Shown: positions 25,436 through 58,935 of the stretch, one piece after another
Layout of the letters: the number at the start of each line of letters is the position of its first letter
Numbering within the stretch: position 1 is the stretch's first letter
Virus record (IMG/VR): IMGVR_UViG_3300042259_000129
Source: a virus
Lineage: Duplodnaviria; Heunggongvirae; Uroviricota; Caudoviricetes
Strand: one strand, 5' to 3'
DNA length: 64,000 nt
Made by a program: the position numbers and the translations under genes
Notes under the pieces: generated by a model
What the model saw: only the letters and a program-made list of their open reading frames with translations
What the model was told of the DNA's origin: nothing
Database searches by the model: none

Positions 25436-25506
25436 TCTTTCTAAATCCAATCCATTCAAAAGGTAATTAGATTTTTCTAGTTACCTTTTTTCATAATTAT
25501 TTCCTG

Positions 25507-25872
25507 TATTGTTTCACCAATCAATATAATTCTATATACTATACCCTCCGTACCAAGTTAATATATTAACTACCCTGCCGGGATTCAATTGTAAACAGGG
25601 AAAATGAGATCAGATGATAAAATATGCTCAATGAGGAAAATAAGTCCGGAAATCTCGAGATTTTCACACTTTTCCGGAAGCCTAATTATTTCAATAACTT
25701 AGAAATCCACCAAAATCTTAGTTTTCCTAATAATATCAATAACTTACGAGAAAACTGGGGAAAACTATGAAAAAAGGTGTATAAAACATTACGATTCCGA
25801 TGAGTTTTGAAAAAGCTAATAATTTCAATAATTTAGGATTCCACTTTTTAGTGTACTTCTTCTAAGAGATTG
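25507..25872 (+). repeat. Copy 1 of a ~370-bp noncoding repeat module, inside a 480-bp gene-free region.
   Basis: Shares a 63-bp block (tattgtttcaccaatcaatataattctatatactataccctccgtaccaagttaatatattaacta) and a 70-bp block (taattatttcaataacttagaaatccaccaaaatcttagttttcctaataatatcaataacttacgagaaa) with copy 2 (47765..48142). Confidence 0.8.
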
Positions 25873-25919
25873 GTTATTCTAAATTCATCTTAACCACACA
25901 AACCAAATCGGAGATTAAG

Positions 25920-27745: not shown

Positions 27746-27746
27746 A

Positions 27747-28479: not shown

Positions 28480-28485
28480 CAACAT

Positions 28486-28563: not shown

Positions 28564-28566
28564 TTT

Positions 28567-28640: not shown

Positions 28641-28661
28641 CAATCTTCAAAGGAAAACATT

Positions 28662-28883: not shown

Positions 28884-28899
28884 AAACAGGGGGATTATT

Positions 28900-29307: not shown

Positions 29308-29318
29308 AGGTGAATAGC

Positions 29319-30789: not shown

Positions 30790-30791
30790 AA

Positions 30792-30980: not shown

Positions 30981-30981
30981 A

Positions 30982-31344: not shown

Positions 31345-31364
31345 TGAGGATAATTATGAATGAC

Positions 31365-31571
31365 TATGTTAAGTTGTATGTATGGGGGGCTATTCTTTTG
31401 TGTGTGTTTGCTTTTTCGTTTGGGTATGCTGCGCCCTATCTAATTTCGGCTGCAAACACTGAACTTTTTTTCCTTGGGGTGTTTACAATTGCTGTATCCC
31501 CAATTATGATTGCTTTTATCATTATGAAGAAGATTTTACCTATTGTTAGAAAACTTAAATCAAAGGAGTAG
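31365..31571 (+). CDS. Small two-transmembrane-helix membrane protein. Possibly an NfeD-like partner of the SPFH protein.
   Basis: Two hydrophobic helices in a 68-aa ORF immediately upstream of the SPFH gene. Confidence 0.45.
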   Translation, partial: YVKLYVWGAILLCVFAFSFGYAAPYLISAANTELFFLGVFTIAVSPIMIAFIIMKKILPIVRKLKSKE

Positions 31572-31574
31572 TTT

Positions 31575-32432
31575 ATGAAAAATCTTGTTTATCTAATTCT
31601 GTTTATGGTGTTGACTTTTGGAAGTGTAGCTTGTACCAAAGTACCTTCTGGCAATGTTGGTGTGAAGGTTTATCTTCTTGGTGGAAATAAAGGGGTTGAC
31701 ACTGAAGAGCTTGGTGTTGGACGATATTGGATTGGTTGGAATGAAGAACTATATATTTTTCCAACATATACTCAGAATTATGTTTGGTCTGCAGATTCTC
31801 GTGAAGGTTCTCCTGATGATGAATCAATTACGTTTCAGACAAAGGAAGGTCTTTCTGTAAATGCTGATATTGGTATTGCGTATCACATTGATCCAAATAA
31901 GGTTAATGATATTTTCCAGAAGTATCGTAAGGGTGTAGAAGAAATTACTGACATTTATCTAAGGAATATTGTGCGAGATGCTTTTGTCGTAGCATCTTCA
32001 AATAAGCCTGTTGAATTTGTTTATGGTGAAGGTAAGGCTGCTCTTCGTGATGAAGTTGAATCAATTGTAAAGAGTAAGGTTGAACCTATTGGTATTATTA
32101 TTGAACAGATTTCCTTTGTTGGTGATCTTCGTCTTCCTGGATCCGTAATTACAGCACTTAACGCTAAAATTGAGGCCACGCAGACTGCACAAAGGGTTGA
32201 AAATCAAGTCCGCGAAGCTGAAGCCGAGGCCCGTAAGAAAATTGCTGCCGCACAAGGCGAGGCAGAATCTATTAAGCTTGTAGCTCTTGCACAGGCCGAA
32301 GCAAATAAAATCCTATCTAACTCAATTACTGCTACTCTTGTTGAATATAAACGAATTGAAAAGTGGAACGGAATTATGCCAACATATATGGCAGGAACAA
32401 TGCCGTCCCCGATGCTATCGATTAAAGAATAA
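31575..32432 (+). CDS. SPFH/band-7 (stomatin/prohibitin/HflK-C-like) protein with a lipoprotein-type signal.
   Basis: Signal peptide and lipobox (TFGSVAC), an SPFH core, and a C-terminal Ala/Glu-rich coiled coil (REAEAEARKKIAAAQGEAE). Confidence 0.65.
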   Translation: MKNLVYLILFMVLTFGSVACTKVPSGNVGVKVYLLGGNKGVDTEELGVGRYWIGWNEELYIFPTYTQNYVWSADSREGSPDDESITFQTKEGLSVNADIGIAYHIDPNKVNDIFQKYRKGVEEITDIYLRNIVRDAFVVASSNKPVEFVYGEGKAALRDEVESIVKSKVEPIGIIIEQISFVGDLRLPGSVITALNAKIEATQTAQRVENQVREAEAEARKKIAAAQGEAESIKLVALAQAEANKILSNSITATLVEYKRIEKWNGIMPTYMAGTMPSPMLSIKE

Positions 32433-32505
32433 AGAATTTTATTTACAATAGATAAGTGGCTTGATAGATTATTTTTATCAAGTCACTTTTAATATTGGAG
32501 TTCAT

Positions 32506-32898
32506 ATGTCTTATCAAATTAAAATTTATTATCGCGCCGGAGATTCTTTCTCAACATCTGATGAGACTTCTATTCTTGAGTATGAATGGAAGAATCTTGA
32601 TATTGCTAAAAAGAATCTAAAAAGAATCAAAGCACATTACGAATGGTTTACATATGCAACCCAACCTCCTCATGTAAATGAAGAGAAATGGTTAAAAAAT
32701 GTTCCTAAGTTTTGCGTTAAAGCAACTTTTTATAAAGCAACTTCAAGATATGATTATGCTATCAAATTACTTCATGATGATGGAGAAAGAGAATATCAAC
32801 TTTATCCATTTTGGTGTGGTTACTATGAACATTTATATGGTGCAAAAATTGTAATTGATTCAGAAGATAAAGATATGTCATTTGGTGATGTAAATTAA
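32506..32898 (+). CDS. Hypothetical protein.
   Basis: GGAG ribosome-binding site before ATG 32506. Confidence 0.45.
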   Translation: MSYQIKIYYRAGDSFSTSDETSILEYEWKNLDIAKKNLKRIKAHYEWFTYATQPPHVNEEKWLKNVPKFCVKATFYKATSRYDYAIKLLHDDGEREYQLYPFWCGYYEHLYGAKIVIDSEDKDMSFGDVN

Positions 32899-32911
32899 GG
32901 GGGTGTAAATT

Positions 32912-33205
32912 ATGGCAACATGGCATAATGGTGGCTGGGATTTTGTTGAGGTTGGAAAAAGATACCAATATAAAGAATCCGGTCTTATTGGTGAAATTGA
33001 AATATTAGAAGACAATTCCACGGATGATGAATATTCTTTTAAAGTTAAATTTGTAAAGGCTGTATGGGATTTTGGTGACACGCCTTTTTGTATTTCAGCA
33101 TCAAAATCCTTAAACGCATATTATAATGGTATGGTTAACATTTATGAGCATGAAGAATATTATATTCCAAATGGATATAAGTATAACTATGAGGAATTCA
33201 AATAA
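32912..33205 (+). CDS. Hypothetical protein.
   Basis: 97-aa ORF. Confidence 0.45.
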   Translation: MATWHNGGWDFVEVGKRYQYKESGLIGEIEILEDNSTDDEYSFKVKFVKAVWDFGDTPFCISASKSLNAYYNGMVNIYEHEEYYIPNGYKYNYEEFK

Positions 33206-33621
33206 TGATAATCAATGAAACTCAGGGAAACCTGTTCAATTTTGTTAAAAAAGATACTGTGGTTGCTCATTGTATTGCAGCAGATGCTGAAATGGGTGCT
33301 GGTATTGCGGTTGATTTTGTGAAAAATTATCCACAAATTAAAAGACTTCGAAATGAAGTTCTTGAAGTAGGGAAAACTTATTATGTTTCCCCAGTATTAA
33401 ATATTGTAACAAAAAGACGAAGTTCCGGTAAACCCTCTTATGAGTCTATGTGCTTTGCACTCCAAAATATGGCAGAGGTAATGAGAAATAACATCATTAC
33501 AGAAGTCTATATGCCTAAAATTGGTTGTGGGCTTGATAGGTTATCTTGGCCCGCAGTTAAGGAACAACTTAAATATGTATTTGGAGACAGTGAGGTAACT
33601 TTTAATGTCTACTATCTATAA
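33205..33621 (+). CDS. Macro-domain protein (ADP-ribose binding/hydrolase).
   Basis: QGNLFNF...DTVVAHCIAADAEMGAGIAVDF...KIGCGLDRLSW follows the Macro-domain signature (GNLx...D.IVNAAN..L..GGGV...I). Confidence 0.7.
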   Translation: MIINETQGNLFNFVKKDTVVAHCIAADAEMGAGIAVDFVKNYPQIKRLRNEVLEVGKTYYVSPVLNIVTKRRSSGKPSYESMCFALQNMAEVMRNNIITEVYMPKIGCGLDRLSWPAVKEQLKYVFGDSEVTFNVYYL

Positions 33622-34099
33622 TATATTTGATGAAAACAGTATTGAAACTTTTAGGGGAGAACATGTCTTTCTAAGTAATTTTTATTTTTCCTTTGTTCTA
33701 TATAATGATATTGTATGGAAAACTGCTGAACATGCTTATCAAGCATCCAAAACCCTTGATCCAAAAGAGAAAAAATGGATTATAGATTGCCCTACTCCCC
33801 ATCTTGTCAAAGAAATAGGGAAGAAATTGACATTAAGAGAAGATTGGAATAATGTAAAAGTTCAAATAATGAGAGACATTATATATGAAAAATTTGAATA
33901 TAATAAGAGTATTAAAGAAAAACTTATAGCAACACACCCCTATATATTAATCGAAGGAAACTTATGGCATGATAATTTTTGGGGTGTATGTAAATGTGAA
34001 AAATGTAAAAAAGTAAAAGTAAAACATAATCATCTAGGCTTTATTTTAATGGAATTAAGAAACCGTTATGTAAATGAAAATTTGTTTTTTAAGGAATAA
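33605..34099 (+). CDS. NADAR-domain protein (YbiA/DUF1768 family; ADP-ribose processing or reversal of DNA ADP-ribosylation).
   Basis: FRGEHVFLSNFY...WKTAEHAYQASK...LIEGNLWHDNFWGVC...HLGFILMELR matches the NADAR conserved pattern (F.G.Y.FLSNF...EH.YQA.K...W..K...GxN.LG.iLM.vR). Confidence 0.7.
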   Translation: MSTIYNIFDENSIETFRGEHVFLSNFYFSFVLYNDIVWKTAEHAYQASKTLDPKEKKWIIDCPTPHLVKEIGKKLTLREDWNNVKVQIMRDIIYEKFEYNKSIKEKLIATHPYILIEGNLWHDNFWGVCKCEKCKKVKVKHNHLGFILMELRNRYVNENLFFKE

Positions 34100-34102
34100 T
34101 AA

Positions 34103-36130
34103 ATGTCTATAATTCATTTAGAAGAAGTCAAGATAAAGAATTTTCTATCATATGGATCTAATGTTTCAACATTTAAAATTGACCACGGGCTGACTTTGAT
34201 CTCAGGGCAAAACAAGGATACTTCACGATCAAATGGAGCAGGGAAATCTGGTTTAAATGAAAGTATTGTTTGGGCATTGTTTGGCAAAACAATTAAAGAT
34301 ATTACTAAAGATCAAATAGTAAATTGGAAGAATAAGAAAAAATGCTTGGTAGAAATTTCATTCTCTATTGATGGGATTAAATATAGGATTGAACGAGGAA
34401 TCAAACCTAATGTTCTAAAAATTTACAAGGGCGATAAAGAACTTGATTCTTTAGCTTCTGTCACAGATTTTCAAAAATATCTCGAAGAAGAAATTTTGAA
34501 AATTGATTACAAAACCTTTATTTCCTTGTTCTATTATAATCCAAATAACTTCGTTTCAATCTTTGATATTCCTAAAGCTCAGAAAAGAAAATTTCTAGAG
34601 AACATTTTCAATCTTGAAGCATACTCAGATATAAAGAATAAGATTAATAAAAAAGTTTCTAATATTGATAGTGCAATATTAGAGAACAAAACTTCTGTTT
34701 CGAAAAATGAAGAGAGAATTTCTTCATTAGAAATAAATGTTTCAAAATACACTTCTGATATTCGAAGTATTGACATTTCAGATACTCACTTACAGTTACT
34801 TCAGGAACAACTCAACGATATCCCGGATGATCTTCCTTCAAAAGAAGATATTGAGAAATATGAACAAAAGATTAAAGATATTGAAGTAGTTAAAAATAAA
34901 GCTGAAATAGCTTTTTCAGAAAAGAATGCTCTTCTAAAGGGAATTAGTTATGACCCTAATGCTGCTGACAAGTTAGAAGAATGTAAGAAGAATTTTACTA
35001 GTGTAAACTACGATGAGGAACTTGAAAAGCTTCTTTATGATGAGTGTTTCGATTATAAGGTAAAGAAAGAATCCATCCTTTCAGATCTGAAAAAGGTCTC
35101 ACAAAAAGGGCAATATGAAGATCTTGATAATTGTCCTATTTGTGGATCTAAAATGAATAATGAATCTATTAGAGAACACAAAGCAAAAGAAAAAGATAGA
35201 TTAAACAAGGAGCTTACTGAAGTAGAAGAAAAGGAAAACCTCCTTATTTCTAAGCATAATGATATTAAAAAATCTAATATGGATTATAAGTATTATGAAT
35301 CTGAAATTGAAAGATTAACAAAAGTAATTGAAGAAAATAGTAAGTATTTAGAGATTATGGAATCTATTAAGACTCTAAAGGAAACAAAAGAAAAATTCTC
35401 TAATACTGTATTTAATTGCAATTCAAAATTGAAAGAAATGAAGGAAAGGGCCTCATTGTACAATAGAGATCTTCTTCTTTCTCAGATTGAAAATGAAAAA
35501 AATAGAATTGAAGAAAGAAAAGCTCAGATTGAGAAGCTTGAAGAATACAAAGCAAATGCTATTTCTGAACTGAGTCTTCTGAAGAGTGAAAATGTTGAAC
35601 TCAAAAAGAAGAATACTAATCTTAGTCTTTTGAAGGATTATTATTCCTTCCTGAAGAAGCTCTGTGGTGATGACCAGATTAAGCAATATGCCATTAGTAG
35701 TCTAGTACCTATCATTAACCAGAGAGCTAACCATTACCTCTCAGAGGCAGCCGTAGGGTTTTATATCAAGCTTGATGGATGGCTGGATTGTGAAATCAAG
35801 GGAGCTGGAATTTCTAATGCAACAGCCAGTAGTCTTTCCGGGGGAGAAAAGAAATCTTTAGAATTGGCTCTTCAATTTGCTCTTTATGACATTTCAAAAT
35901 TAAAATGCAAAAATCTCCCAAACATTCTTATTCTTGATGAAATTTTGGATTCTTCTGTAGATGTTAAAGGTATTGAAAATCTTATGAATATTGTAACTAT
36001 CAAACAACGTGAAGACAATCTTGCTACATTCATTGTTTCTCATAGAAAAGAAATTAGTTCGTTTACATTTGATCGTAGGTTTAATATTATTAAATCTAAT
36101 GGATATAGCTCTATTAAGGAGGAAGTATAA
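34103..36130 (+). CDS. gp46: Recombination-related ATPase gp46-like (Rad50/SbcC).
   Basis: Walker A GQNKDTSRSNGAGKSG, zinc hook CPICG, ABC signature LSGGEKKSLELAL, Walker B ILILDEILD. 675 aa with no TGA. Confidence 0.8.
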   Translation: MSIIHLEEVKIKNFLSYGSNVSTFKIDHGLTLISGQNKDTSRSNGAGKSGLNESIVWALFGKTIKDITKDQIVNWKNKKKCLVEISFSIDGIKYRIERGIKPNVLKIYKGDKELDSLASVTDFQKYLEEEILKIDYKTFISLFYYNPNNFVSIFDIPKAQKRKFLENIFNLEAYSDIKNKINKKVSNIDSAILENKTSVSKNEERISSLEINVSKYTSDIRSIDISDTHLQLLQEQLNDIPDDLPSKEDIEKYEQKIKDIEVVKNKAEIAFSEKNALLKGISYDPNAADKLEECKKNFTSVNYDEELEKLLYDECFDYKVKKESILSDLKKVSQKGQYEDLDNCPICGSKMNNESIREHKAKEKDRLNKELTEVEEKENLLISKHNDIKKSNMDYKYYESEIERLTKVIEENSKYLEIMESIKTLKETKEKFSNTVFNCNSKLKEMKERASLYNRDLLLSQIENEKNRIEERKAQIEKLEEYKANAISELSLLKSENVELKKKNTNLSLLKDYYSFLKKLCGDDQIKQYAISSLVPIINQRANHYLSEAAVGFYIKLDGWLDCEIKGAGISNATASSLSGGEKKSLELALQFALYDISKLKCKNLPNILILDEILDSSVDVKGIENLMNIVTIKQREDNLATFIVSHRKEISSFTFDRRFNIIKSNGYSSIKEEV

Positions 36131-36576
36131 TGGATGAATGGAAGCGGGGGTTATCAGATGTAGAAATTACAAAAAGAATTTGGGATATCGTTAAAGATGA
36201 TAAGTATCTAGGTAAAGAGCTTGCTTATTATAATGAGGAAAATGAAGTAATATCCCTTTTAGATGGAAATTTAACTTTAACTGTCTTTGAAAATGATATT
36301 ATTATTGGATTCTCTTGTGAATTAGATTCTGCTAAAAGAATTATTGCTATATATACTTATCTAAGTGGTCTTATACATATTAAAGATTTAAAAATTGTTG
36401 ATGAATATTACATTTCATTTGATGAAAATGATATGCCAGAAATGTTATATGGCCATGAAGCAAGAATGAAATTTTTACAAGATAAATGTTTTAATGTTTT
36501 TAAAAATTTATTAGAAAATAAAAATATGAAAGATTATTTAGAAGATCTTAATATTGAAGATATGTATAAATGTTAA
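36130..36576 (+). CDS. Hypothetical protein.
   Basis: 148-aa ORF overlapping the gp46 stop (TAATGG). Confidence 0.5.
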   Translation: MDEWKRGLSDVEITKRIWDIVKDDKYLGKELAYYNEENEVISLLDGNLTLTVFENDIIIGFSCELDSAKRIIAIYTYLSGLIHIKDLKIVDEYYISFDENDMPEMLYGHEARMKFLQDKCFNVFKNLLENKNMKDYLEDLNIEDMYKC

Positions 36577-37696: not shown

Positions 37697-39187
37697 ATGT
37701 CAATAATATGTCTTATATGCAATATAGAATGTAAATCTATGAAAGCACTTAAAACACATTTAACAAAAAAACATAATATATCTTTTAAATTTTATTATGA
37801 TAATAATCTTAAAGTAGATAATATGGACGGTATATGTAAGTTATGTAAAACAAATGAAACATATTTTATAAGTTCTTCTGGCAAATATAAACCATTGTGC
37901 GAAAAATGCGGCAAATCCAGGAGTATTCATGCACTAAAAATTTTATATGGAGAGGAAGAAGGAACTAGAAGATACAATGAAATCTGTGCTGGTTGTAGTA
38001 GAGACTTAGCATTCTTCACCAACAAATATGGAGAGGAAGAAGGAACTAGAAGATACAATGAATGAGTTAATAAAACAAAAAATAATAAACAAAATTTTAT
38101 AAAACGACACGGGGAAGAAGAAGGATTAAAGAAATATGACGAATATTGTTTATCAAAATCTTTATCTAAAGAAAAATTTATTTATAAGCATGGAGAGGAA
38201 GAAGGAACTAGAAGATACAATGAATGATCAAAATCACATCTTACATTAGAAGAATATATATCAAAGCATGGAGAGGAAGAAGGAACTAGAAGATACAATG
38301 AATGAGTAAATTCTGCTAAAAATTCCAAAGAAAACTTTATTATTAGATATGGAGAGGAAGAAGGATTAAAGAAATATAATGAATATTGTAATAAAGTTGG
38401 CTGTGGTTTAAACAATTTGATTAGAATATATGGAGAGGAAGAAGGAACTAGAAGATATAAAGAAGTTTGCAGTAACAAAAAAGGCATTGGCTCTTTAAAA
38501 TATTGTATTAATAGATACGGAAAGGAAGAAGGAGCTTCTTTTTATAATAGATGAAGTAAGTCTAGTGTGCCTACATTAGATAATATGATTAGAATATATG
38601 GAAAGGAAGAAGGAACTAGAAGACATACCATATTTAGAGAAAAATCAAAACAAAATTTACACAATTTTATAGATAGATATGGAGAAGATGAGGGCATAAA
38701 AAGATATAATTTGTTTTGTGAAAGATCATCAGGAAATACTAGGTCGGTTTCCAAAGAATCCTTAAAGTTATTTTATGAATTGATAGATTGATTATTTGAA
38801 GAGAATATTGCAGATTTTAAAGATATTAAATGTGGTATACCAGAAAGTTCTGAATTGTGTATAACATACAATAATAGAAAAAATAGATTTATGTTTGATT
38901 TTACATTATTTGATAAACTTATAATAGAATATAATGGCAATGGATCTCATGTAAGAGATACATGATCTATAGATAAAAAAGAACAATGAAGGCATGTTTG
39001 AGACAAAGAATGTGACTATATTAAAGCACTTGAAAGGGACGCCTTTAAAAATAATATCGCTATTAATGCTGGTTATAAAATTCTTACTGTATGAGCAGAA
39101 GATAAATTTGAAGAAAATTTAAAGTTATGTAAAAAATTTATATTGGAAGAAATGATTGATGAAGAAACTGGAGAAGTAATTCTCTAA
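37697..39187 (+). CDS. Zinc-finger protein with 11 tandem YGEEEGTRRYNEW-type repeats and a C-terminal Vsr/DUF559-like (PD-(D/E)XK) endonuclease-type domain. About 497 aa.
   Basis: N-terminal CLICNIEC...H..H and CKLCK...CEKCGK. Repeats xxYGEEEG(T/L)(R/K)(R/K)YNE(W/Y). C-terminal FDFTLFDKLIIEYNGNGSHV...ILTVWAED. Confidence 0.55.
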
Positions 39188-39756: not shown

Positions 39757-39772
39757 GGGAGCCGAAGCTCCC
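39757..39772 (-). terminator. Hairpin GGGAGC-CGAA-GCTCCC downstream of the giant ORF.
   Basis: 6-bp GC-rich stem with a tetraloop. The identical element recurs at 58915-58930. Confidence 0.5.
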
Positions 39773-39778
39773 GTCTCC

Positions 39779-42700
39779 TTAACCTTTACATTCATCAACT
39801 AACATCAGAAACTGAGAATATAAACCTTCGGGGTCATCTACCATAAACTCATCAGTAAATGGAACTCGAACTACACCATTAAGATCTTTATCCGTATGGA
39901 AGGTTATACCGATACCAAACTGATTTGAATCAACATACATCTTGTTAGATTTCTTAATAACTTTCTTTTCAAAATCTTCCCAAGGCATAATTTCTTTAGC
40001 AGTTGGTACTGTACACTGATGAAACACAAATGTAATAACATTTTTACTTTTAATCATTTCTTGCTCCTGAAGATAATCTGCAAATCGTTTAAAATACTTG
40101 TTTTCTTTTAAAGCATTAGGATATTTAGCTTTAAGTTCTTTAATTCTTTTCTTATTTGTGAACATTACTTTATGAGCTTTTACAATGTTAATTTGAGCTT
40201 GAGGTCAACAAATTGCTCATTCGGGAGAACGAATTGAGTCGTTTCCGGTACCTGCAACATGATGATGAAGTCCATAATCCCCTAGATTTACTTCACATTC
40301 ATAGATTGTCCCAACTGTTCCTTCTCTTCTTGAGTAACCATCATCTCCAAGATATTGAGCAGCCTTTTCAATAACATTAGTTACATAAATTCCACCAACA
40401 GTATCTATTGTTCTCCAATGATATAAATCTGTTGGATAATCACTATATGTAACTCGTTTACCAGATTCTCGTGATGATACAGGAAAATATCCATTTTCTA
40501 AATATTCAATATAATCATTAGACTCTTCAATAGCATCTCCATCACTTTTAGGTTTAACTAAAAGCATATTATGAATATCAAGCATTCTGCCAACAGTAGA
40601 AGAATCGTTTGCAGGAATAACAGTAAACCCAAATCTTAAAATAAAGTTTGATGCTGTTAATCCTGAAGCATGGAAAGCTGGAATAAGTTCACTAGCTCCA
40701 AATCTTGTTCTAAATTGATCAAATTCAGGATATTTCATATTAACATTAAAGGATTCAATAAATTCAACAGCAGAATTTCCATGTTTTCCATTATAATATT
40801 TAGAATATTCAACAGACTTTTCATTAAGCTGATCTTGAGTTTCCTCAATTTTTTCCAAATTGATATCTGGAATGAGAGCATCTCCCTTTAATACTTGTTC
40901 AACACGCACAAAGTAATCTGCCCATTTTTCTCTTGGCTTCTTTCTAAGCATTGCTCCCTTAAATTCAAAGTTATTATATTTCAATAATGTTTTGATTCTA
41001 GAAGGGGTTAATTTAATTGAGGGTTTTAAAGGGTTATCATCATTGAAAATATCTTTTAATAGTGGATAAATCAAAAGTTGATCTTTCAATGTATTAACTA
41101 ATGAATTAGCAATTTTATTAGGAAATGCATCTAATAGATCATCAAGTTTTTGAAGTTTATCTTTATCAGATAACATATCTAACATGATATATTCAAGACT
41201 ATTGGTCTTATTTAAAAGTCTTTTACCAGAACTAATTTTATCCCAAACCCCTTGAACATTATCATTCTTAAAATATTCTATTAGGGCATCTACTCCATAA
41301 TCGTCATATAACTTTCCAATCATGAAAGAATTTCGATCTAAATATTCCGCAATATTTTCAGTAGCTTCCTTAGATGTATAGTATCCTGCTCTATTAAGAT
41401 ATTTTAATCTTCAATCATTATCTTCATGATTTAATAAGAAATCATTTATTTTGTCTTTTGAATCGAAATATTCTAAGGCAAAAGATTTTTTTAATTCATC
41501 TTGTTCATATACCGGAAAGTTATATACATAATCATATACATTTTTTTTATATCTTTCATCGTCCATATTGTCTGCTAAAAATTGTTGAACAAAAGCTTTA
41601 TCTAAAAATCCTTTCGAAATTAAATAATTAAAATCTCTTAGAATATGAAGACCTGAAATCTTAATTTTATATTTTACATGTTCTAACCATATATCTTTAT
41701 ATGAATTAAAAGTTTTTAAATTAAACCTATAGTCTTTAACTGAAAAGAAACCATATGTACTATCATCATTCTCTTTAATTATAGTTTTAATGGCTGCGTC
41801 TATCTTTATGCTTTTTGATAAATCATAATCACTATTTTCAAAATATTTAATAAAATTCTGTAATCTGTATGCTACTATTTTATTTAAATCTATAAACAAA
41901 TCGGGGTTCTTAAATATAAAATCTGCTTCAATTCCCCAATTTTGCACCGTACTCATATCGAACTTATCATCTATTAATTTTGTTAATAGTGTATAAAAAA
42001 GTAGAAACTCAGGCATAGATGTATTAAGCTTCCTAAAAATATTTTTAATAACTTTAACTTCGCCAATAATATATTTGGGGTGATAATTGTTTTTTGAGTC
42101 TCTTTCTATAGTTTTGACCAAATACGCAAATTTGGTCCAGTTTCCTTTATATGCAAAATAATTCAAACAATAAAGTCCAACCAAACTAAATTCTTCTCGT
42201 TCACTAATATAAACATCTATCCATTTAAATCCTGGGCCAGTCTCAAGTGCAAGATCCTCAATCAAATATGAATGATCTGTTTGATATTCTTTATGTAAAA
42301 AAAATGCCAAAGTAAGATACTTTCTAAGATCATCATTACTTGATTTTACTCGTTCAATAAATTCAGAATATGGTAAATTATAGTGTTCAATATATTCTTT
42401 TAAAGTTCAATTATTATCTTTCAAATGTTTTAAATAAAATTCATGAAAGGAGGTTGGATTTGTTCTCTTCACTAACTCAGAATTAAGAATTTCATATGAT
42501 AATTTATCACCAATTTTGTCTTTAAGTGTCAACATTGAATCAGCTCATCTATATGCTGCACTTTTTTTATCATCTAATAAAATCCATTTTTTTGCTATTT
42601 CTTTTGATGATCTACTCTCAATAGAAATCACAACATTTATAGTATCCAAAGTCATATATTCAGCAAAATGCCCTAAATAATCTACAATTTCAATTTTTTG

Positions 42701-43984
42701 ATCCCCATAAATGCCATGAATAAGAGTCTCAAAATCGTTTCCCCGCAGCATAATAATTGCTCTAATTATATTTTTTTCATTCAAACAATCTGGGAATGTA
42801 GATTTAAGAATAGAATCTAATTCATCAATATATTTGTCAGGAACTTTAGAAGCAATTTTTAAAGAGCCTCTTCATTCTGAAAAATATTTTTTTAAATCTT
42901 CAATAAAAAAAGAAGAAAAAGTTGTATATAGATCTTTTATATTATCTTTCATCTGAAGAGTTCTAACCATATATCTAAAATCAAAAAGAAGTGAATCTTT
43001 AAATGCATATTCAATAAAATATGGAGACAATCTAGAAAAATCTCCTTTAATTGGGGTATATAATTTTTCGATTGTAGGGAATTGCTTTTTGATTTCATCT
43101 GGAATTTCGTCAAACAAAAACTGCTTCATTACTGTTCTTGAAGGAGTATATCTCATATAAAGACTTCTAACAATAGTTTGAATATCACTAGAAGATTTAC
43201 TATTAGAAACCAGATACATTAGAAGATAATATGTGCTTAATTCAAGATCTAGTTGATTTGCATTAGTATATAAAGTAATATCCTGCCAAGTTGGAGCAGG
43301 AATTTCTTTTGGCTCATCAGTAGGGATAACTTGAGTTTTAACAGGAATATTTGTAGTCTTAGGTTCGCCTGTTAATGCAGATTTGACTGACGAAACTTTT
43401 GGGACAACAGTATCAACAGTTACAGGTGCGTCTGTAGCATCCTGGGTACTATCTGAAGGACTTGAAAGCCTTTTATATAATACCCTAAATTCATGTGCTC
43501 TCTTATGCTGCATCGCTAAACTGTAGAGTTCTGGAAGCATATCAGATAAAGTTTTATTTCCTTTCTTAAAATCTTTAAGAAGAGCGGAAATTTGTGGATA
43601 TGGGTATAAAGATGAAACTTTTATTCTTTTGATAATTTCGTCTCTAAACATATTTTCGTCCAGCCCACCCAATGTTCCCATTTTAATTTTGGCGAGCATT
43701 TTGGTAATCTTGGTCATAGTCATGTCAGGTATAACTTTTTTGTCATCAATGACTTTCAAAATAACCATTAGATCAGAATCTGTATCAGTAACTTTGTCTA
43801 GTCTTACTGTAGACTGTTTAAAATATTGAATGAGTTTGTTCTCATCTTTATATTTTGCATACAGACCAAGAAAGCCAAGAAAATTAATCCAAAATTCATT
43901 TGTAATTTTCTTTTCTTTTGCAAGGAATTTATCTTTCCCTTCTTGATCTTTTCATATATGATTTTCTATTAAATAATCTCTCAT
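39779..43984 (-). CDS. Giant hypothetical protein, 1401 aa, with at least 8 in-frame TGA. Function unknown. The C-terminal third has a speculative R...STV...ExE arrangement reminiscent of ADP-ribosyltransferases.
   Basis: Five track ORFs (42872, 42545, 41411, 40217, 39779) share one frame and are joined only by TGA. ATG at 43984 with a GGAG ribosome-binding site, preceded by a TAA. Confidence 0.6.
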
Positions 43985-44019: not shown

Positions 44020-44304
44020 TTATTCAATTTCATCTTTTCCTTCTTTCTCTGAAGGAATTTCTTCTTTATCTAACATTTCTAAAAGGCCTTTAAATTCACC
44101 AATATGAACTTTTTCTTCTCGAGCAACATCAAGAAGAACTTCCTTTACTTTTTTGTTTTTTACTTTTCTAGCCATCAATTGATAAAGAACAATAGCATCC
44201 TGTTCAGCAACAATAGCCATTCTTAAAATTTCATCATCAGTTTTATCATTGAGATTCATCTCATTAGATAACATCTCATTAAGCATAAATTCTTTAAATT
44301 TCAT
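44020..44304 (-). CDS. Small ferritin-like (rubrerythrin-type diiron) protein.
   Basis: ILRMAIVAEQDAIVLYQLMA...VAREEKVHIGEF (ExxH motif). Confidence 0.4.
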   Translation of the reverse strand: MKFKEFMLNEMLSNEMNLNDKTDDEILRMAIVAEQDAIVLYQLMARKVKNKKVKEVLLDVAREEKVHIGEFKGLLEMLDKEEIPSEKEGKDEIE

Positions 44305-45722
44305 TAAGGTTCTTTTAACTCCTTCTCTATTACTTCAAACTTTTCTTTATCATAAAATCTTAATCTAATATCGCCGTATTTTGGGAACCATTTGTTATTA
44401 TGATCTACCAAATCGTATATAATAGCACCATTTTTTGATGCATGTTTACGTAAAACCCGGCCTATAGATTGGAGTATCCTGATTTTCGACTTATAGGGGG
44501 CAGCAAAAATAAGATGCCCTAAATTAGGTATATTGATCCCTGTACTAAACGTCCCGTATGTTGCGCAAATTATATATTTTTTATCGGGGTTTTGTATCAC
44601 TTTTTGTCTTCAGATCTCTCTATCTGATGTATCCATAGATCCAGAAATGAATACTATATTGTCTTCCTCACATAACCCGCGATCCAATAAAAATCGTTTA
44701 AGGAATTCACCTTCTGTTTCAACTTTACCAACTAAAAGTAAAACAGTTTTATTAATACTATTAAGAATATTACATATATTGTTTAATCTAAAAGAATTTC
44801 TAAATATCTCATCTTTTGCTTCATTATAGTCAGTAGAAAATTTTGTATTATATTTAATATGATACATTACAATTTTACTATCTGAGATGTATCCTAAGTC
44901 TGCAAGTTCTGATGCTGGTACTTCAACAACTATAGGACCCAAGTAACTTTTTACATTCATAGTTTCAAGTCTTGCTTCAGGCATTGTACCAGTACAGCCA
45001 ATTCGATAGTCTGCATTTGAAGCTTTTAAAATATCCCTAATAACTGTGGCTCTAGCGCCATGTACTTCATCAATAATTACACAATCAAAATTCTCTACTT
45101 GAGAAACATTATGTGATAAAGATTGTCAGGTTGAAATAACAATCTTCTTATCCCATTCTTTAAATTTTGAATATACACGGCCAAGATCTTCTTTATAAAA
45201 TCCATAGTCTAAGATATCTTTATAAAATTGCTCTACCAGTGAAGTAGTAGGGACAATTATCATAGCATTTGAAATTTTCTTGCTATGAAGAAGATTTTTG
45301 ATTATACCAGCAATAATATAGCTTTTTCCTGCAGAAGTTGCGGCCCTAATAATACATTTTTTATATTTTAATGCTTTACGAATACATTCTTCTTGGTATG
45401 GGCGATAATCCCAGGGCTCACATTTTTCTAATTCAATATTATCAAAACTTGAATCCTGTTTGAGAAACTCTTTTACTTCATCATCTATAATCAGTTGGGT
45501 TTTGGGATAATTCTTTTTGTAAAATGAAAGAAATTCAGTCAATAATCCATAAGGAAGAATCTTATCATAGATACTAAACAAATAAATTTTTCCATCTCAA
45601 TGTCCAACTTTAAACTTTGGACTAAAAGCATACCCAGGAGCATATTCAGAAAAATGATCTTTTAATTTTAATAAAATTTCTCTATCATCACAATCTACAA
45701 ATATATGTAATCTGTCATACAT
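44304..45722 (-). CDS. uvsW: UvsW-like SF2 DNA helicase, with 3 TGA.
   Basis: The N-terminus HIFVDCDDREILLKLKDHFSEYAPGYAFSPKFKVGH[TGA]DGKIYLF aligns with T4 UvsW VRIDCEESTFHELRDFFSFEADGYRFNPRFRYGNWDGRIRLL. Also AATSAGKS, DEVH, TGT and QSIGRVLR helicase motifs. Confidence 0.85.
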
Positions 45723-45736
45723 TTTTAAAGTAATCA

Positions 45737-46144
45737 TTAGATTCTCTTATTAGCAAATTCTTTCATACTCCAATACTGTCTATCAAGACCTTTTACACAG
45801 AGCTCAAAGAATGCTATACGAATTTTTTGTTTTCTCAAAATCTCTTTCATTTTAAGATATTTTGGATCTTTAGGCAAATAGTATTTTTCTATTTCCTTGT
45901 TTGAGAGTTCTTCTTCAGATTGAAATCGATACTTGTGATAAAGTTCACCAACAAGTTTTTCTTGAAGCTCTTCAAGTTCTTCATATCTGATTTTTTCTTT
46001 AAGTAATTGATCTTGAAATCTAATTACTTGATAAGGATTATCTTGTAGCTTTTGAGAAATATTCAATTCATCAAAAGCTACAAGTTCATATATTGGATAT
46101 TCTTTAAGTAGATCATCAACAATTTTATCTTTATCAATTGCCAC
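45737..46144 (-). CDS. uvsY: UvsY-like recombination mediator.
   Basis: Size (135 aa), position upstream of uvsW, and the C-terminal AFFELCVKGL..YW resembling T4 UvsY ILLDFCSGAL..YW. Confidence 0.55.
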   Translation of the reverse strand: MAIDKDKIVDDLLKEYPIYELVAFDELNISQKLQDNPYQVIRFQDQLLKEKIRYEELEELQEKLVGELYHKYRFQSEEELSNKEIEKYYLPKDPKYLKMKEILRKQKIRIAFFELCVKGLDRQYWSMKEFANKRI

Positions 46145-46714: not shown

Positions 46715-47689
46715 CTATGATAGTAAATAATGTTGAATTCTACCTTCAATAGAATTCTCAAATAATTTTAATTTTTTAGGTAGAACAACTATTGAAACAT
46801 CCCTATCCTTAACAACTCTTTCAAAAGAAGAATCACTAAAAGAACATTGTAAAGGAACAACATACATTGAAGAAGTTGGAGTTAATAGAACTATAGATGT
46901 CGAAATATAATCTGAGGGTTCTTCTCTAATAGGGCAAAATTTTGTATTTCTATCTAAATTTTTAGAAGTTAGATTTTTTAATGTTGTTAAAACTTCTAAT
47001 GGATGATTTGGTTCTTCTTTTTCTATAGCATCAATGACAGTATCTCTTCTCATTATAGAAGACTTATAACCTTCTCCATCTTCTTTAGTATAACCAGCAT
47101 CTTTTAAAAAAATTCCATGATTAGTTCTAACAACCAAATTATAGTCTTTAATTTCTTTAACTTTTACATTATAATCTTCAGGGACAATATGTTTAAGTAA
47201 GATTTTCTTTACATCTTCATCATCTTCAATTGGATCAATTTCTAAATTCCTTAAAATGGCTTCTTTGGTTTTATTATGAAGAAATATTTCTAAATAGAAA
47301 AGTTTTTCCCCATCTGAGACTATTGTATTACCTTCGAATCTTTCTTCAACCAAAGTATCAACAACATCTTTGATATTATCCATTTTAAGAACTTGTCTTA
47401 AGATAATCCCATTTCTATTAGTTTTTCTATTTTTAATAGATAGTCTAACTTTACCGTCTTTCTTATCTTCATGATTTTGCAAAGCAACAGAAACTAACAT
47501 TATGCCTTTTGAATTAATACCTTCAGTCCAATCATTATATTCATCAATTAGAAATGCTGATGAAATCCCATCATGAGAATAATATTTCAAGGAGTATTTT
47601 GGTTTATACGCTCTATCCCTAATTTTATAGAGGAATCATTGTTCCTTGTTATTTCTATTTTTTAATTTTAAGCCAATTGCTACACACAT
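46715..47689 (-). CDS. Hypothetical protein with an N-terminal Met-Cys. Possibly an Ntn-hydrolase-like protein. About 324 aa with 1 TGA.
   Basis: ATG at 47689 gives MCVAIGLKL.... Cys2 immediately after Met is typical of N-terminal-nucleophile hydrolases. This is speculative. Confidence 0.4.
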
Positions 47690-47764
47690 CTAGCTTTTAC
47701 CTCATCCAAATTAATATAGTTTATAAATTATTTATCAAAAATTCATAAGTACATATTACCAAAA

Positions 47765-48142
47765 TATTGTTTCACCAATCAATATAATTCTATATACTAT
47801 ACCCTCCGTACCAAGTTAATATATTAACTATCATATTTCTCCGGAGTTGTAAATAGAGAAAATTCAAGTTTATACCACATCTCGAATATTTTTTTATCAG
47901 AAAGTCTGGAAATTTTGAGATTTTTCATGTTTCCAGGAAGCTTAATTATTTCAATAACTTAGAAATCCACCAAAATCTTAGTTTTCCTAATAATATCAAT
48001 AACTTACGAGAAATCCACCAAAATCTATAGAAAAACGTAATGTTTTATACATCATTTTCTTAGGATTTCGAATAGTTAATAATTTTAATAATTTAGGATT
48101 TCTTAAAATCCTCTTTTTCTCCATTAGAAATTTCTATAAATA
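47765..48142 (+). repeat. Copy 2 of the ~370-bp noncoding repeat module, in a divergent intergenic region.
   Basis: Same blocks as 25507..25872. It also carries an internal duplication of aaatccaccaaaatct. Confidence 0.8.
48135..48142 (+). promoter_or_regulatory. T4-type late promoter (TATAAATA).
   Basis: 35 nt upstream of ATG 48177. Confidence 0.5.
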
Positions 48143-48176
48143 ATTAAAACACAATAAAGTTTTTTAGAGGAATAAT

Positions 48177-48980
48177 ATGACTAGAGCTGATTTAAGAGCA
48201 AGATTAAAAAGAGATTTGGGGTATCCATATAACAAAGTTGAAGTCACAGATGATCATCTAAATGATGCCATCGATGATGCTTTGGAAAAATGAGAAGAAT
48301 GAGCAGTAGGTAATTCTACAAAAGAATATTATTTTACTATGCCACTGTCTGCTGGTCAATATGAATATGTCCTACCAGCATATGTTACAGACGTACTGGG
48401 CTTCAAATCTGACACATGGAGTACAGGTATTAATACTCTCTTTACCATTGAGAATTTTTTATACACACAAGGATATATTGACCCCCAACAGTTTATGGGA
48501 TCTGGTGGACTAATTGGGTATCAGCTTGCTATGGATTATATTGAAACATTAGAAAGATATATGCCTGAGCAATATACATTTAAGTATGCTAGACACAAAA
48601 AGATTCTTAACTTGAGTCCTACTCCTGTTTTAAAAGATGTCAGAACTATTAATGGAACTGAATGGGATTTTGCTGGATATCTTTTAGTTAGATGTATGGC
48701 ATATGATGGATCCTTTGTTGATGGCTGAACCTATTTAGATTTTGAAGATCAAGCACTTAGTGAAGGTTGAGTTAAAAAATATGCATTAGCAAAACTAAAA
48801 ACAACATTAGGTCAAATTAGAAGAAAGTTTTCAAGTTATAATTCAATAGGAAATACTGGAATAACTTTGGATGGTGCTGAATTAATTTCTGAAGGCAAAG
48901 AAGAAATGGATAGACTAATAGAAGAAATTGATACTAACTATGCCTATGAAGGGTATGGTATTACAATGGGAGCAATATAA
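48177..48980 (+). CDS. Virion structural protein, possibly a neck or head-completion component. 267 aa with 3 TGA.
   Basis: Late promoter upstream. Frame continuous across TGA. Confidence 0.45.
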
Positions 48981-58665: not shown

Positions 58666-58809
58666 TTATTCCTCCTTTCCTATATTAAAAAGGTAATTAA
58701 GAAATTGATCCCCAGATTCAAACTCCATTTCAAATTCAGGTTCCTTTCCATATTGAGCAATAAACTTTTCCTTGTAGAGAGCAATTTCACATTCAGTTGG
58801 GATATACAT
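58666..58809 (-). CDS. Small hypothetical protein (47 aa).
   Basis: ATG-to-TAA ORF with a GGAGG ribosome-binding site for the next gene inside its 3' end. Confidence 0.3.
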   Translation of the reverse strand: MYIPTECEIALYKEKFIAQYGKEPEFEMEFESGDQFLNYLFNIGKEE

Positions 58810-58909
58810 TTTGATCTCCTGGGTTATTTGTTGTTGTGTTAAGATTAGAATATAAAAGTTTTGAAAGTTTGTAAACAGTTTTAAGAAAAAATTTCAAAAT
58901 ATGTAAACA

Positions 58910-58935
58910 AAAAAGGGAGCCGAAGCTCCCTTTTA
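58910..58935 (-). terminator. Terminator hairpin GGGAGC-CGAA-GCTCCC plus a T-run, downstream of gp23.
   Basis: On the minus strand the stem is followed by TTTTTTG. Same hairpin sequence as at 39757. Confidence 0.65.

What the first reader, a model, noticed from the sequence alone, without database searches (positions are those of the whole stretch)
47700..48177. Copy 2 of the noncoding module sits in a divergent promoter region and ends in a late promoter
The second copy lies between the start of the leftward gene at 47689 and the rightward late gene at 48177. It carries an extra internal duplication (aaatccaccaaaatct twice). A TATAAATA sits at its 3' edge (48135). Copy 1 has no late promoter there. 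The two copies have therefore diverged at their ends while keeping the core, which suggests the core itself is under selection.
Basis: seen in the sequence. Interest (0 to 1): 0.5.

Follow-up and report, generated by a model that had tools for sequence, protein, structure and literature searches.

The report
Repeated intergenic control cassette, T4-like phage
The flagged interval holds one copy of a roughly 340-base non-coding cassette that an uncultivated T4-like phage places in front of several gene clusters; it is most likely a set of protein-binding sites and promoter elements, which makes it a moderately interesting variant of known phage regulatory repeats.

Summary
Copy 2 (47765-48102) lies between a leftward gene starting at 47689 and a gp13-like late gene starting at 48177. 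AAATCCACCAAAATCT occurs twice in it, and TATAAATA sits at 48135.

The phage is a distant T4 relative that reads TGA as Trp. The "core" is a mosaic:
- Three islands are near-identical between the copies: a 66-nt block A, a 65-nt pair of 20-nt boxes, and a third box.
- The sequence between the islands matches no better than the flanks (44-49%).

The same islands recur at three or more other intergenic loci in related contigs, always pointing toward the downstream genes. Box 1 and box 2 are 45 nt apart in 7 of 7 loci.

The late promoter lies outside the repeat. Copy 1 has an early-type promoter at the same place (TGTACT-N17-TATTCT).

The box core TCAATAACTTAG fits the IHF consensus. It also occurs in pairs or arrays in about 20 unrelated viral contigs.

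Best reading (confidence about 0.4): a DNA-level upstream control cassette, made of architectural or regulator binding sites plus a bidirectional promoter/operator block, placed ahead of promoters specific to each gene cluster. Rivals are a leader or non-coding RNA, a replication origin, and a recombination relic kept similar by gene conversion.

It is a new variant of the PeSL type of cassette.

The parts
47690..47764 (.). 5' flank specific to copy 2. It carries the ribosome-binding site (GAGGT on the minus strand, 47700-47704) of the leftward gene that starts at 47689.
   Evidence: Sequence read. This stretch is 49% identical to the equivalent flank of copy 1, which is background level.
47765..47830 (+). 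Block A, 66 nt, identical to 25507-25572. It has promoter-like hexamers on both strands: on the plus strand TTCACC-16-TATACT at 47771-47798, and on the minus strand TTGGTA-16-TAGAAT at 47814-47787.
   Evidence: The block is also 100% identical in L001. The promoter matches are 9 of 12 only and are not more frequent than in shuffled sequence.
47814..47829 (.). Perfect 16-nt palindrome AGTTAATATATTAACT inside block A, a candidate operator. The same palindrome is at 25556-25571 in copy 1.
   Evidence: Read directly from the sequence. Folded as RNA it is weak (z -1.5).
47831..47904 (+). Diverged spacer. Only TTGTAAAyAGrGAAAAT is shared among the copies.
   Evidence: 46% identity between the copies; alignments.
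47905..47937 (+). Hairpin HP1: TCTGGAAA ... TTTCCAGG. In copy 1 it is TCCGGAAA ... TTTCCGGA at 25645-25678. One C-G pair has changed to U-A, a compensatory change.
   Evidence: The z-scores are -1.9 and -1.6, so the structure is weak. In L001 the pair is broken (C.A mismatch).
47943..47962 (+). Box 1, TAATTATTTCAATAACTTAG (copy 1: 25683-25702).
   Evidence: six matches in the window with 3 or fewer mismatches against 0.5 expected. All are on the plus strand and all lie in the two modules.
47963..47978 (+). First AAATCCACCAAAATCT, inside the 25-nt spacer between box 1 and box 2.
47988..48007 (+). Box 2, TAATAATATCAATAACTTAC (copy 1: 25728-25747). It contains a perfect WATCAANNNNTTR and starts 45 nt after box 1.
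   Evidence: The 45-nt spacing holds in 7 of 7 loci.
48011..48026 (+). Second AAATCCACCAAAATCT. This is a same-length patch; copy 1 reads AAACTGGGGAAAACT at the equivalent position.
48008..48076 (+). Remnant of hairpin HP2. Its loop, GTAATGTTTTATAC (48037-48050), is the reverse complement of the loop in copy 1, GTATAAAACATTAC (25779-25792).
   Evidence: Folding z-scores are -1.6 for copy 2 and -0.05 for copy 1. The equivalent hairpin is strong in L028 (z -6.2) and L168 (z -5.3).
48077..48102 (+). Box 3, TAATAATTTTAATAATTTAG, plus GATTTC. This is the last conserved island (copy 1: 25817-25842).
   Evidence: 24 of 26 identical.
48095..48122 (+). Small hairpin AGGATTT/AAATCCT followed by TCTTTTTCTCC. 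It is weakly terminator-like and specific to copy 2.
   Evidence: z -0.5. A sub-threshold Rfam match covers it.
48135..48142 (+). T4-type late promoter TATAAATA, outside the repeat, 35 nt before the ATG at 48177. The ribosome-binding site GAGG is at 48167-48170.
   Evidence: gp55-like sigma factor. In L003 a half-module is likewise followed by TATAAATA.
25458..25489 (+). Copy 1 context: a strong terminator hairpin after the gp47-like gene, immediately upstream of block A.
   Evidence: -16 kcal/mol, z -7.45.
25507..25842 (+). Copy 1 of the cassette, from block A to box 3.
25852..25880 (+). Flank specific to copy 1: an early-type promoter TGTACT-N17-TATTCT, followed by a CA-rich leader and GGAGATTAAGATG. 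It resembles the cassette at 26630-26703 and 58809-58882, and L168 14082-14110.

Best explanation
The interval holds copy 2 of a roughly 340-nt intergenic control cassette of a distant T4-like phage that reads TGA as Trp. The cassette acts as double-stranded DNA placed upstream of promoters.

It has two working parts:
1. Block A is an invariant 66-nt stretch. It has host-type promoter hexamers on both strands and a 16-nt perfect palindrome. I read it as a bidirectional promoter/operator.
2. Three 20-nt boxes (TAATnATnTCAATAAyTTAG) follow. Boxes 1 and 2 are held exactly 45 nt apart. I read the boxes as binding sites for a sequence-specific architectural or regulatory protein. That protein could be a host bending protein of the IHF type or a phage factor.

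The cassette sits at the head of gene clusters. It is followed by a promoter that belongs to the individual cluster: an early-type promoter in copy 1 and the late promoter TATAAATA in copy 2.

What is shown: the anatomy, copy number, orientation, spacing, mosaic conservation and promoter classes. What is inferred: protein binding and any regulatory effect.
For: Conservation is in short sequence islands, not in structure.
- Identity between the copies is 66/66, 72/73 and 24/26 in the three islands, against 44-46% between them.
- Hairpin HP2 has decayed in the window (z -0.05 and -1.6). HP1 is weak.

The boxes are non-random.
- There are 6 matches against 0.5 expected, all in the two modules and all on one strand.
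- Box 1 to box 2 spacing is 45 nt in all 7 loci, although the spacer sequences have diverged.
- Box 2 is a perfect WATCAANNNNTTR. That consensus is otherwise depleted in the window, 6 against 14.6 expected, and 2 of the 6 are box 2.

The box core recurs in other phages.
- TCAATAACTTAG occurs as pairs or arrays in about 20 unrelated IMG/VR contigs with GC 0.23-0.59. The chance expectation for such pairs is about 0.05.
- In some contigs (L196, L197, L209) the copies form inverted pairs, which fits binding to double-stranded DNA.
- Across 70 sites there is an A-tract at -16 to -13 and a C at -9. This matches the layout of the lambda H' IHF site as I recall it.
- One copy lies next to cos and the small terminase gene of Xanthomonas phage CP1.

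Position fits an upstream element.
- Every copy is intergenic and co-oriented with the downstream genes.
- Single boxes in relatives lie 8-26 nt upstream of the -35 hexamer of TTTACA-N16/17-TAnnnT promoters.
- The promoter downstream differs by gene class: early-type at 25852-25880 and late at 48135.
Against: - No binding protein is identified. No HU/IHF homologue was found in about 200 kb of held loci, and the host is unknown. One relative of the polymerase is labelled as coming from a Bacilli MAG, a group that has no IHF.
- Boxes 1 and 3 deviate from the IHF core (TTTCAA in place of WATCAA). The boxes in L168 lack the C altogether.
- The spacings of 45 and 89 nt are not whole numbers of helical turns.
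- The promoter hexamers in block A score 9 of 12 and are no more frequent than in shuffled sequence.
- All boxes point the same way as the genes. In relatives they lie between a stop codon and a hairpin. This fits an RNA element equally well.
- Only 5 to 7 distinct copies exist, all from one phage lineage.
Confidence: 0.4

Rival explanations
1. Transcribed element. Block A is an early promoter whose transcript carries HP1, the boxes and HP2, either as a long 5' leader or as a free RNA of about 250-300 nt. The boxes would then be RNA sites, for example for a processing nuclease, an antiterminator of the nut type (linear box plus hairpin), or a translational regulator.
For: - All copies and all boxes are co-oriented with the genes.
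- In L186 a canonical TTTACA-N16-TATAAT promoter lies about 55 nt upstream of box 1, so the boxes there would be transcribed.
- In relatives a box lies between the stop codon and a hairpin: after gp32, before the DNA polymerase gene, and at L168 13901-14030. The hairpin stems there change in a compensatory way.
- HP1 shows one C-G to U-A change.
- HP2 is strong in L028 and L168 (z -6.2 and -5.3).
Against: - No Rfam family matches, even at E up to 10.
- HP2 is degenerate in both window copies, and its loop is inverted between copies. An inverted loop keeps a DNA palindrome but changes the RNA loop sequence.
- Conservation lies in linear blocks.
- The half-modules in L003 and L028 lack block A.
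- The related motif in other phages occurs in both orientations and as inverted pairs.
Confidence: 0.22
2. Recombination relic. The copies are junction sequences of the PeSL type, kept similar by gene conversion or recent duplication. They matter mainly as substrates for shuffling gene modules, and the sequence islands have no function of their own.
For: - The phage has cassettes of the PeSL type: a stem-loop, then TTTACA-N17-TATTCT, a leader and a ribosome-binding site, repeated at 26630-26703 and 58809-58882 at 95% identity.
- Copy 1 lies between a terminator hairpin and such a promoter.
- Perfect identity over 66 and 71 nt next to background-level sequence is the pattern that conversion tracts leave.
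- The neighbours differ at every locus.
- PeSLs are described in PMC4122927.
Against: - The same islands are invariant in every copy.
- The 45-nt spacing is kept even where the spacer sequence has diverged (L168, L186).
- Single boxes are conserved between relatives whose DNA polymerases are 86-92% identical, while the adjacent coding sequence and hairpins have changed.
Confidence: 0.15
3. Origin of DNA replication. It would combine a promoter that supplies a primer RNA (as at T4 oriF/oriG), direct repeats acting like iterons, bending-protein sites and AT-rich hairpins, and would be present in several copies per genome.
For: - Each cassette has three direct 20-nt repeats, IHF-like cores, a promoter-like block and an AT-rich context.
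- The neighbouring genes are often replication or recombination genes: gp47/gp46 and a UvsW homologue in the window, gp41 and primase in L001, DNA polymerase in L003.
Against: - The spacing of 45 and 89 nt is unlike known iteron arrays.
- Single boxes occur at ordinary gene junctions.
- No initiator gene is associated with the cassette.
- GC skew switches follow gene orientation only.
Confidence: 0.1
4. The boxes are tandem promoters for a phage-specific transcription enzyme, either a single-subunit RNA polymerase or an alternative sigma factor.
For: - The 20-nt conserved motif always faces the genes and is followed by G and purines.
- Two contigs that carry the related motif encode a T7-like RNA polymerase: CP1 ORF33, and L201 with a 27% identical homologue.
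Against: - No RNA polymerase homologue was found in the held T4-like loci.
- The experimentally confirmed Xp10 RNA polymerase promoters lie in 43-bp repeats of unrelated sequence (PMC4331800).
- Some boxes sit directly upstream of strong terminator hairpins.
- In L196 the motifs form convergent inverted pairs.
Confidence: 0.07

Closest known systems
PeSL / PmSL cassettes of T4-type phages (Arbiol et al. 2010; Comeau et al. 2014, PMC4122927)
   Same: - Repeated, short, non-coding cassettes in T4-like genomes at the junctions between gene modules.
- They combine a stem-loop and a host-type promoter.
- Their neighbours vary from copy to copy.
- The promoter consensus in this lineage (TTTACA-N17-TAttwT) matches the T4/PST form TTTACW-N17-TAYWAT.
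   Different: - This cassette is three to five times longer.
- Its conserved parts are a 66-nt block and three 20-nt boxes that PeSLs lack.
- It does not include the ribosome-binding site or start codon.
- It sits upstream of a separate promoter, early or late, that belongs to the individual gene cluster.
- No indel between close relatives has been linked to it.
IHF binding sites (WATCAANNNNTTR with an upstream A-tract, e.g. lambda attP H' and cosB I1)
   Same: - Box 2 matches the core perfectly, and boxes 1 and 3 match with one mismatch.
- Box 3 of copy 1 has AAAAAGC, then 7 nt, then the core, as in H'.
- The related motif lies next to cos and the small terminase gene in phage CP1.
   Different: - The boxes conserve about 20 nt, including the four 'N' positions (TAAC) and the following G. 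That is more specific than IHF needs.
- No IHF/HU gene and no host are known.
- Binding has not been tested.
RIP/BIME-type bacterial intergenic repeats (palindromic units flanking an IHF site); cited from my own knowledge
   Same: A mosaic intergenic repeat that combines hairpins with a core of the IHF type, located between transcription units.
   Different: Those are repeats of enterobacterial chromosomes with conserved palindromic units. Here the hairpins vary or have decayed, and the element is in a phage genome.
Lambda nut sites (linear boxA plus boxB hairpin in early leaders)
   Same: A conserved linear box followed by a hairpin, located downstream of early promoters and at the heads of operons.
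   Different: - The hairpin sequences are not conserved, and several look like true terminators.
- There is no similarity to boxA.
- No N-like factor is known.

Membership tests
PeSL (promoter-early stem-loop) cassette | A stem-loop (terminator) immediately upstream of the promoter. | tested here: inconclusive
   Copy 1 has one: the hairpin at 25458-25489 (z -7.45) lies 17 nt before block A. Copy 2 has none, because a divergent gene start is there instead.
PeSL (promoter-early stem-loop) cassette | A sigma-70-like promoter with -35 and -10 hexamers about 17 nt apart, inside the repeat. | tested here: inconclusive
   Block A has TTCACC-16-TATACT, a 9 of 12 match. The number of such matches in the region does not exceed that in shuffled sequence.
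PeSL (promoter-early stem-loop) cassette | The ribosome-binding site and start codon of the downstream gene directly follow the promoter, within the cassette. | tested here: not met
   Block A lies about 350-410 nt from the start codons. The ribosome-binding site and start codon are in the non-repeated flank.
PeSL (promoter-early stem-loop) cassette | Association with insertions, deletions or replacements between closely related genomes. | not testable with these tools
   No complete pair of close relatives could be fetched. The neighbours do differ at each locus.
IHF binding site | The core WATCAANNNNTTR. | tested here: inconclusive
   Box 2 is perfect in both copies. Boxes 1 and 3 have TTTCAA. 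The L168 boxes have TTAATAAC, without the C.
IHF binding site | Bound by IHF of the host. | not testable with these tools
   The host is unknown, and no HU/IHF homologue is present in the held loci.
Structured non-coding RNA | A secondary structure conserved with covariation, or a match to a described family. | tested here: not met
   Rfam gives nothing. HP2 has z -0.05 and -1.6 in the window, and its loop is inverted between copies. HP1 has z -1.6 and -1.9 with a single compensatory pair.
Promoter of a phage single-subunit RNA polymerase | The phage encodes such a polymerase. | tested here: inconclusive
   tblastn with the CP1 polymerase finds nothing in the window or in 13 related loci. Much of the genome was not available.
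Miniature transposable element (MITE) | Terminal inverted repeats and a target-site duplication at the ends of the repeat. | tested here: not met
   No inverted repeat pairs the module ends (and inspection of the alignments). The sequences next to the repeat differ, with no duplicated target.
T4-type late promoter (for the TATAAATA at 48135) | TATAAATA about 6-50 nt upstream of a late gene, in a phage that encodes a gp55-type sigma factor. | tested here: met
   - The gp55-like gene is at 23943-24449.
- The motif is 35 nt upstream of the gp13-like gene.
- There are 24 sites against 14.8 expected, and 9 of them lie 6-51 nt before a co-oriented start codon.
- Activity has not been tested.

The most novel reading that the evidence does not exclude
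The 20-nt box is the recognition site of a conserved factor, not yet identified, that many unrelated phages share. Its core TCAATAACTTAG recurs in pairs and arrays in about 20 viral contigs with GC 23-59%. In this lineage three such sites plus block A would form an enhancer-like or architectural hub. That hub could be plugged in front of either early or late promoters, or could double as a replication origin, to coordinate the switch between gene classes in a phage that also changes the meaning of TGA.
Probability: 0.2. Interest if true: 0.65.

Novelty: new variant of a known kind. Interest (0 to 1): 0.4.

Why it matters
- Repeated regulatory cassettes are thought to drive module shuffling and gene timing in T4-like phages, but they are known only from a few cultivated groups.
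- This one comes from a deep, uncultivated lineage that reads TGA as Trp, and it has a richer make-up: an invariant promoter/operator block plus three precisely spaced boxes.
- It pairs with either an early or a late promoter, so it gives a concrete handle on how such phages organise their transcription units.
- The box core also recurs in many unrelated phages. It may therefore mark a common factor-binding site, possibly for IHF, which would help in annotating phage regulatory regions.

Tried and rejected
- Rfam, at gathering thresholds on the whole window and at E up to 10 on both copies, gave only the two tRNAs and noise.
- blastn of the interval against 50,697 phage records gave no match.
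- Exact scans for TTTCAATAACTTAGAAATCC in metagenome and GTDB genome contigs gave only chance 20-mers in sequences of unrelated GC content. There is thus no sign that the cassette comes from a host.
- Scans of IMG/VR for block A and for the HP2 loop found no copies beyond contigs of the sample series 3300042259/69/71/72.
- Extending the window by about 6-7 kb on each side revealed no third copy.
- Whole-module RNA folds were inconsistent between the copies.
- No small ORF is conserved. The 70-aa ORF at 25624-25836 is absent from copy 2.
- I considered the single-subunit RNA polymerase promoter idea for the widespread motif and ranked it low. The validated Xp10 promoters are unrelated, the CP1 site lies beside cos, and L196 has convergent inverted pairs.
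- A crude test of motif orientation against the neighbouring genes in the other phages was uninformative, with 25 of 51 co-oriented, because the ORF calls were noisy.
- I could not settle whether the L001-L004 contigs belong to the same genome as the window. They share no gene with it except a TnpB copy, and they come from the same samples.
Full report
**Context**

The window is about 30% GC. It is densely coding only if TGA is read as a sense codon.
- TGA codons at residues 47 and 204 of the UvsW-like helicase align with Trp in T4 UvsW (2oca_A), so TGA encodes Trp.
- PHROG matches identify a T4-like phage: a gp55 late sigma factor (23943-24449), a gp47/SbcD-like nuclease (24449-25435), a UvsW-like helicase (44304-45737, minus strand) and a gp13-like head-tail adaptor (48177-48980).
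- The DNA polymerase of related contigs is under 60% identical to any polymerase among 50,697 cultivated phage records; the listed top hits are about 32%. The lineage is therefore distant and uncultivated.
- The same phage occurs at about 100% identity in several JGI and Logan samples.

**Check of the observation**

- The leftward ORF runs 46715-47689 and the rightward ORF starts at 48177, leaving a 487-nt gap.
- A second copy of most of that gap lies 22,258-22,260 nt upstream, in the 484-nt gap at 25436-25919. An HMM built from five copies finds exactly two in the window.
- AAATCCACCAAAATCT is at 47963 and 48011, and once in copy 1 at 25703.
- TATAAATA is at 48135-48142.

- The second 16-mer is a same-length patch, not an insertion.
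- TATAAATA lies 33 nt beyond the last conserved base of the repeat.

**Anatomy**

Identity between the two copies is a mosaic.

| Segment | Identity between copies |
|---|---|
| 5' flanks | 47-49% |
| Block A (25507-25572 = 47765-47830) | 66/66 |
| Next ~80 nt | 46% |
| HP1 | 68% |
| Box 1 to box 2 | 72/73 |
| HP2 region | 44% |
| Box 3 | 24/26 |
| 3' flank | 43% |
| Downstream coding | 41% |

Gapped alignment of unrelated sequence in this window gives 41-49%. Ungapped random 70-mers average 29%.

- Block A has promoter-like hexamers on both strands and a perfect 16-nt palindrome.
- HP1 (TCCGGAAA/TTTCCGGA) shows one C-G to T-A compensatory change in copy 2, but it is thermodynamically weak.
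- The boxes follow TAATnATnTCAATAAyTTAG. There are six matches in the window against 0.5 expected, all on the plus strand and all in the two modules.
- The HP2 loop is reverse-complemented between copy 1 and L003 on one side and copy 2, L001 and L028 on the other. This is the mark of a small inversion across a DNA palindrome.
- HP2 is a strong hairpin in L028 and L168 (z -6.2 and -5.3) but has decayed in both window copies (z -0.05 and -1.6).

**Other copies**

Exact-word scans of IMG/VR found the cassette only in contigs from the same sample series.
- L001/L002 carry a full copy, between a gp41-like helicase gene and a divergent gene.
- L003/L004 carry a half copy (boxes and HP2) after an RNA ligase gene, followed by TATAAATA.
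- L028/L038 carry HP1, the boxes and a strong HP2, followed by a TTTACA-N17-TAAATT promoter and a run of small genes without TGA.

The neighbouring proteins at these loci have no homologues in the window except a TnpB copy. Whether these contigs are other parts of the same genome or a sister phage could not be settled.

More distant relatives were reached through DNA polymerase homologues that are 73-92% identical.
- L168 (13901-14110) has a diverged half-cassette: two boxes 45 nt apart, a different but strong hairpin, and then TGTACA-N17-TATTCT.
- L186 has TTTACA-N16-TATAAT, then two boxes 45 nt apart.
- In L168 and L170, single boxes lie right after the gp32 stop codon, before a terminator whose stem has changed in a compensatory way. 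A further box lies just upstream of the promoter/hairpin of the DNA polymerase gene.
- L171, the most distant relative, has no box.

Box 1 to box 2 spacing is 45 nt in 7 of 7 loci, although the spacer sequences differ. Every copy points toward the genes downstream.

**What follows the cassette**

The lineage uses early promoters of the T4 type.
- TTTACA-N16-18-TAnnnT occurs 15 times against 7.9 expected. The sites cluster in the block without TGA at 25920-36576.
- A 74-nt cassette of promoter, leader and ribosome-binding site is repeated at 26630-26703 and 58809-58882. This is the PeSL architecture described for T4, RB49 and KVP40 relatives (PMC4122927).

The 3' flank of copy 1 carries a diverged member of that family: TGTACT-N17-TATTCT at 25852-25880, followed by a CA-rich leader and GGAGATTAAGATG. 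The 3' flank of copy 2 carries TATAAATA instead. Nine of the 24 TATAAATA sites in the window lie 6-51 nt before a co-oriented start codon, and the phage has a gp55 homologue.

The divergence "at the ends" is therefore a swap of promoter class. It matches the genes served: early genes without TGA after copy 1, and a neck protein gene after copy 2.

**The box**

The box core fits the IHF consensus WATCAANNNNTTR. Box 2 fits perfectly. That consensus is otherwise depleted in the window, 6 against 14.6 expected, and two of the six are box 2.

Searching IMG/VR for two copies of TCAATAACTTA(G) that lie 20-50 nt apart returned 27 stretches against about 0.05 expected by chance. About 20 of these are from unrelated contigs with GC 0.23-0.59.
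- The motif there reads (A)AATCAATAACTTAG.
- It forms direct arrays of up to six copies and, in L196, L197 and L209, inverted pairs.
- Across 70 sites there is an A-tract at -16 to -13 and a C at -9. As far as I recall, this is the layout of the lambda H' site.
- One copy lies beside cos and the small terminase gene of Xanthomonas phage CP1.

I considered that the motif might be a promoter for a single-subunit RNA polymerase, because CP1 and L201 encode one. The evidence is against it.
- The validated Xp10 promoters lie in unrelated 43-bp repeats (PMC4331800).
- Convergent inverted pairs make no sense for promoters.
- No such polymerase is seen in the held T4-like loci.

No HU/IHF gene was found either, and the host is unknown. 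The "TAAC" in the wider family is partly fixed by my search pattern. Its uniformity within arrays still suggests a recognition more specific than generic IHF binding.

**Interpretation**

Four facts point to a DNA-level element made of protein-binding sites and promoter elements, rather than a folded RNA.
- Conservation lies in short linear islands.
- The spacing of boxes 1 and 2 is strict.
- The hairpins are decaying, and one loop is inverted between copies.
- The related motif occurs in both orientations elsewhere.

The position of the cassette, at the heads of gene clusters and upstream of a promoter specific to each cluster, fits an upstream control or architectural cassette. I put this at about 0.4.

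The main rival, at about 0.22, is a transcribed leader or non-coding RNA in which the boxes act as RNA sites. The strict co-orientation with genes and the recurring order of stop codon, box, then hairpin support it. A recombination relic maintained by gene conversion (0.15), a replication origin (0.10) and tandem phage-specific promoters (0.07) remain possible.

**Comparison and novelty**

The closest described system is the PeSL/PmSL family. The cassette fails one defining feature: the ribosome-binding site and start codon are not part of it. It also adds components that PeSLs lack.

I therefore file it as a new variant of a known kind of phage regulatory repeat, not as a PeSL member. Specialist interest is moderate. 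It would rise if the box proves to be a factor-binding site shared across phages.

Noticed in passing
whole window; 25920-36576: The phage reads TGA as Trp: there are 122 in-frame TGA against 179 TGG, and two TGA codons align with Trp of T4 UvsW. One 10.7-kb block of about 25 mostly small genes right after copy 1 has no TGA at all, as expected for early genes translated before a change of code.
   Followed up: partly
26630-26703 (+) and 58809-58882 (-): A second repeat family, 74 nt and 95% identical: GTTTACA-N17-TATTCT, a CA-rich leader and CAGGAGATyAAAAATG, placed upstream of two unrelated genes. The second copy is preceded by the terminator GGGAGCTTCGGCTCCC. This is a textbook PeSL-type cassette. 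The 3' flank of copy 1 (25852-25919) is a diverged third member.
   Followed up: partly
16066-17103 (+); L003 11074-12358; L172 10503-11624: A TnpB / Cas12f-like (PF07282) gene of an IS element. It is 88% identical in DNA, and 95.7% in protein, to a copy in a different context in a related contig.
   Followed up: partly
IMG/VR loci L173, L179, L188, L189, L191, L193-L211; Xanthomonas phage CP1 43843: The motif (A)AATCAATAACTTAG occurs in pairs, in arrays of up to six copies 34-60 nt apart, and in inverted pairs, in about 20 unrelated viral contigs with GC 0.23-0.59. It matches the IHF consensus and has an A-tract upstream. In CP1 it lies beside cos and the small terminase gene.
   Followed up: partly
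window, both strands: The IHF consensus WATCAANNNNTTR is under-represented: 6 sites against 14.6 expected, and all 100 shuffles had at least 6. Two of the six sites are box 2 of the cassettes.
   Followed up: no
39779-43984 (-): A 1401-aa ORF containing 7 TGA codons has no Pfam match at E up to 0.01. The 324-aa and 179-aa genes next to copy 2 have no Pfam or PHROG match either.
   Followed up: no
37697-39187 (+): A protein with about ten tandem 27-aa repeats (YGEEEGTRRYNEW..., 81-nt period). It contains 9 TGA codons and begins 21 nt after a TATAAATA.
   Followed up: no
19110-19285 and 19647-19723: A highly acidic Asp/Glu repeat with a 12-nt period, perfect over 5.8 copies. The greedy ORF call put a reverse-strand ORF here, which is probably wrong.
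   Followed up: no
39757-39772 and 58915-58930: An identical GC-rich hairpin, GGGAGCCGAAGCTCCC, used as a terminator at two convergent or bidirectional junctions.
   Followed up: no
L172 6923-7273; L171 14191-14541; L003 7567-7917: Related contigs encode a small protein with an RF-1/GGQ domain near the DNA polymerase gene. This may bear on the reassignment of TGA.
   Followed up: no
window 25762 (start of Logan contigs L048, L049, L051, L052): Independent short-read assemblies of the same phage break right after the 71-nt exact repeat of the cassette. The repeat therefore fragments assemblies of this genome.
   Followed up: yes
26353-26628 (+): A 91-aa protein, the second gene after copy 1, has weak matches to Sigma70 region 4 and HTH domains (E about 1e-3, below the Pfam cut-off). 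It is a possible small regulator.
   Followed up: no
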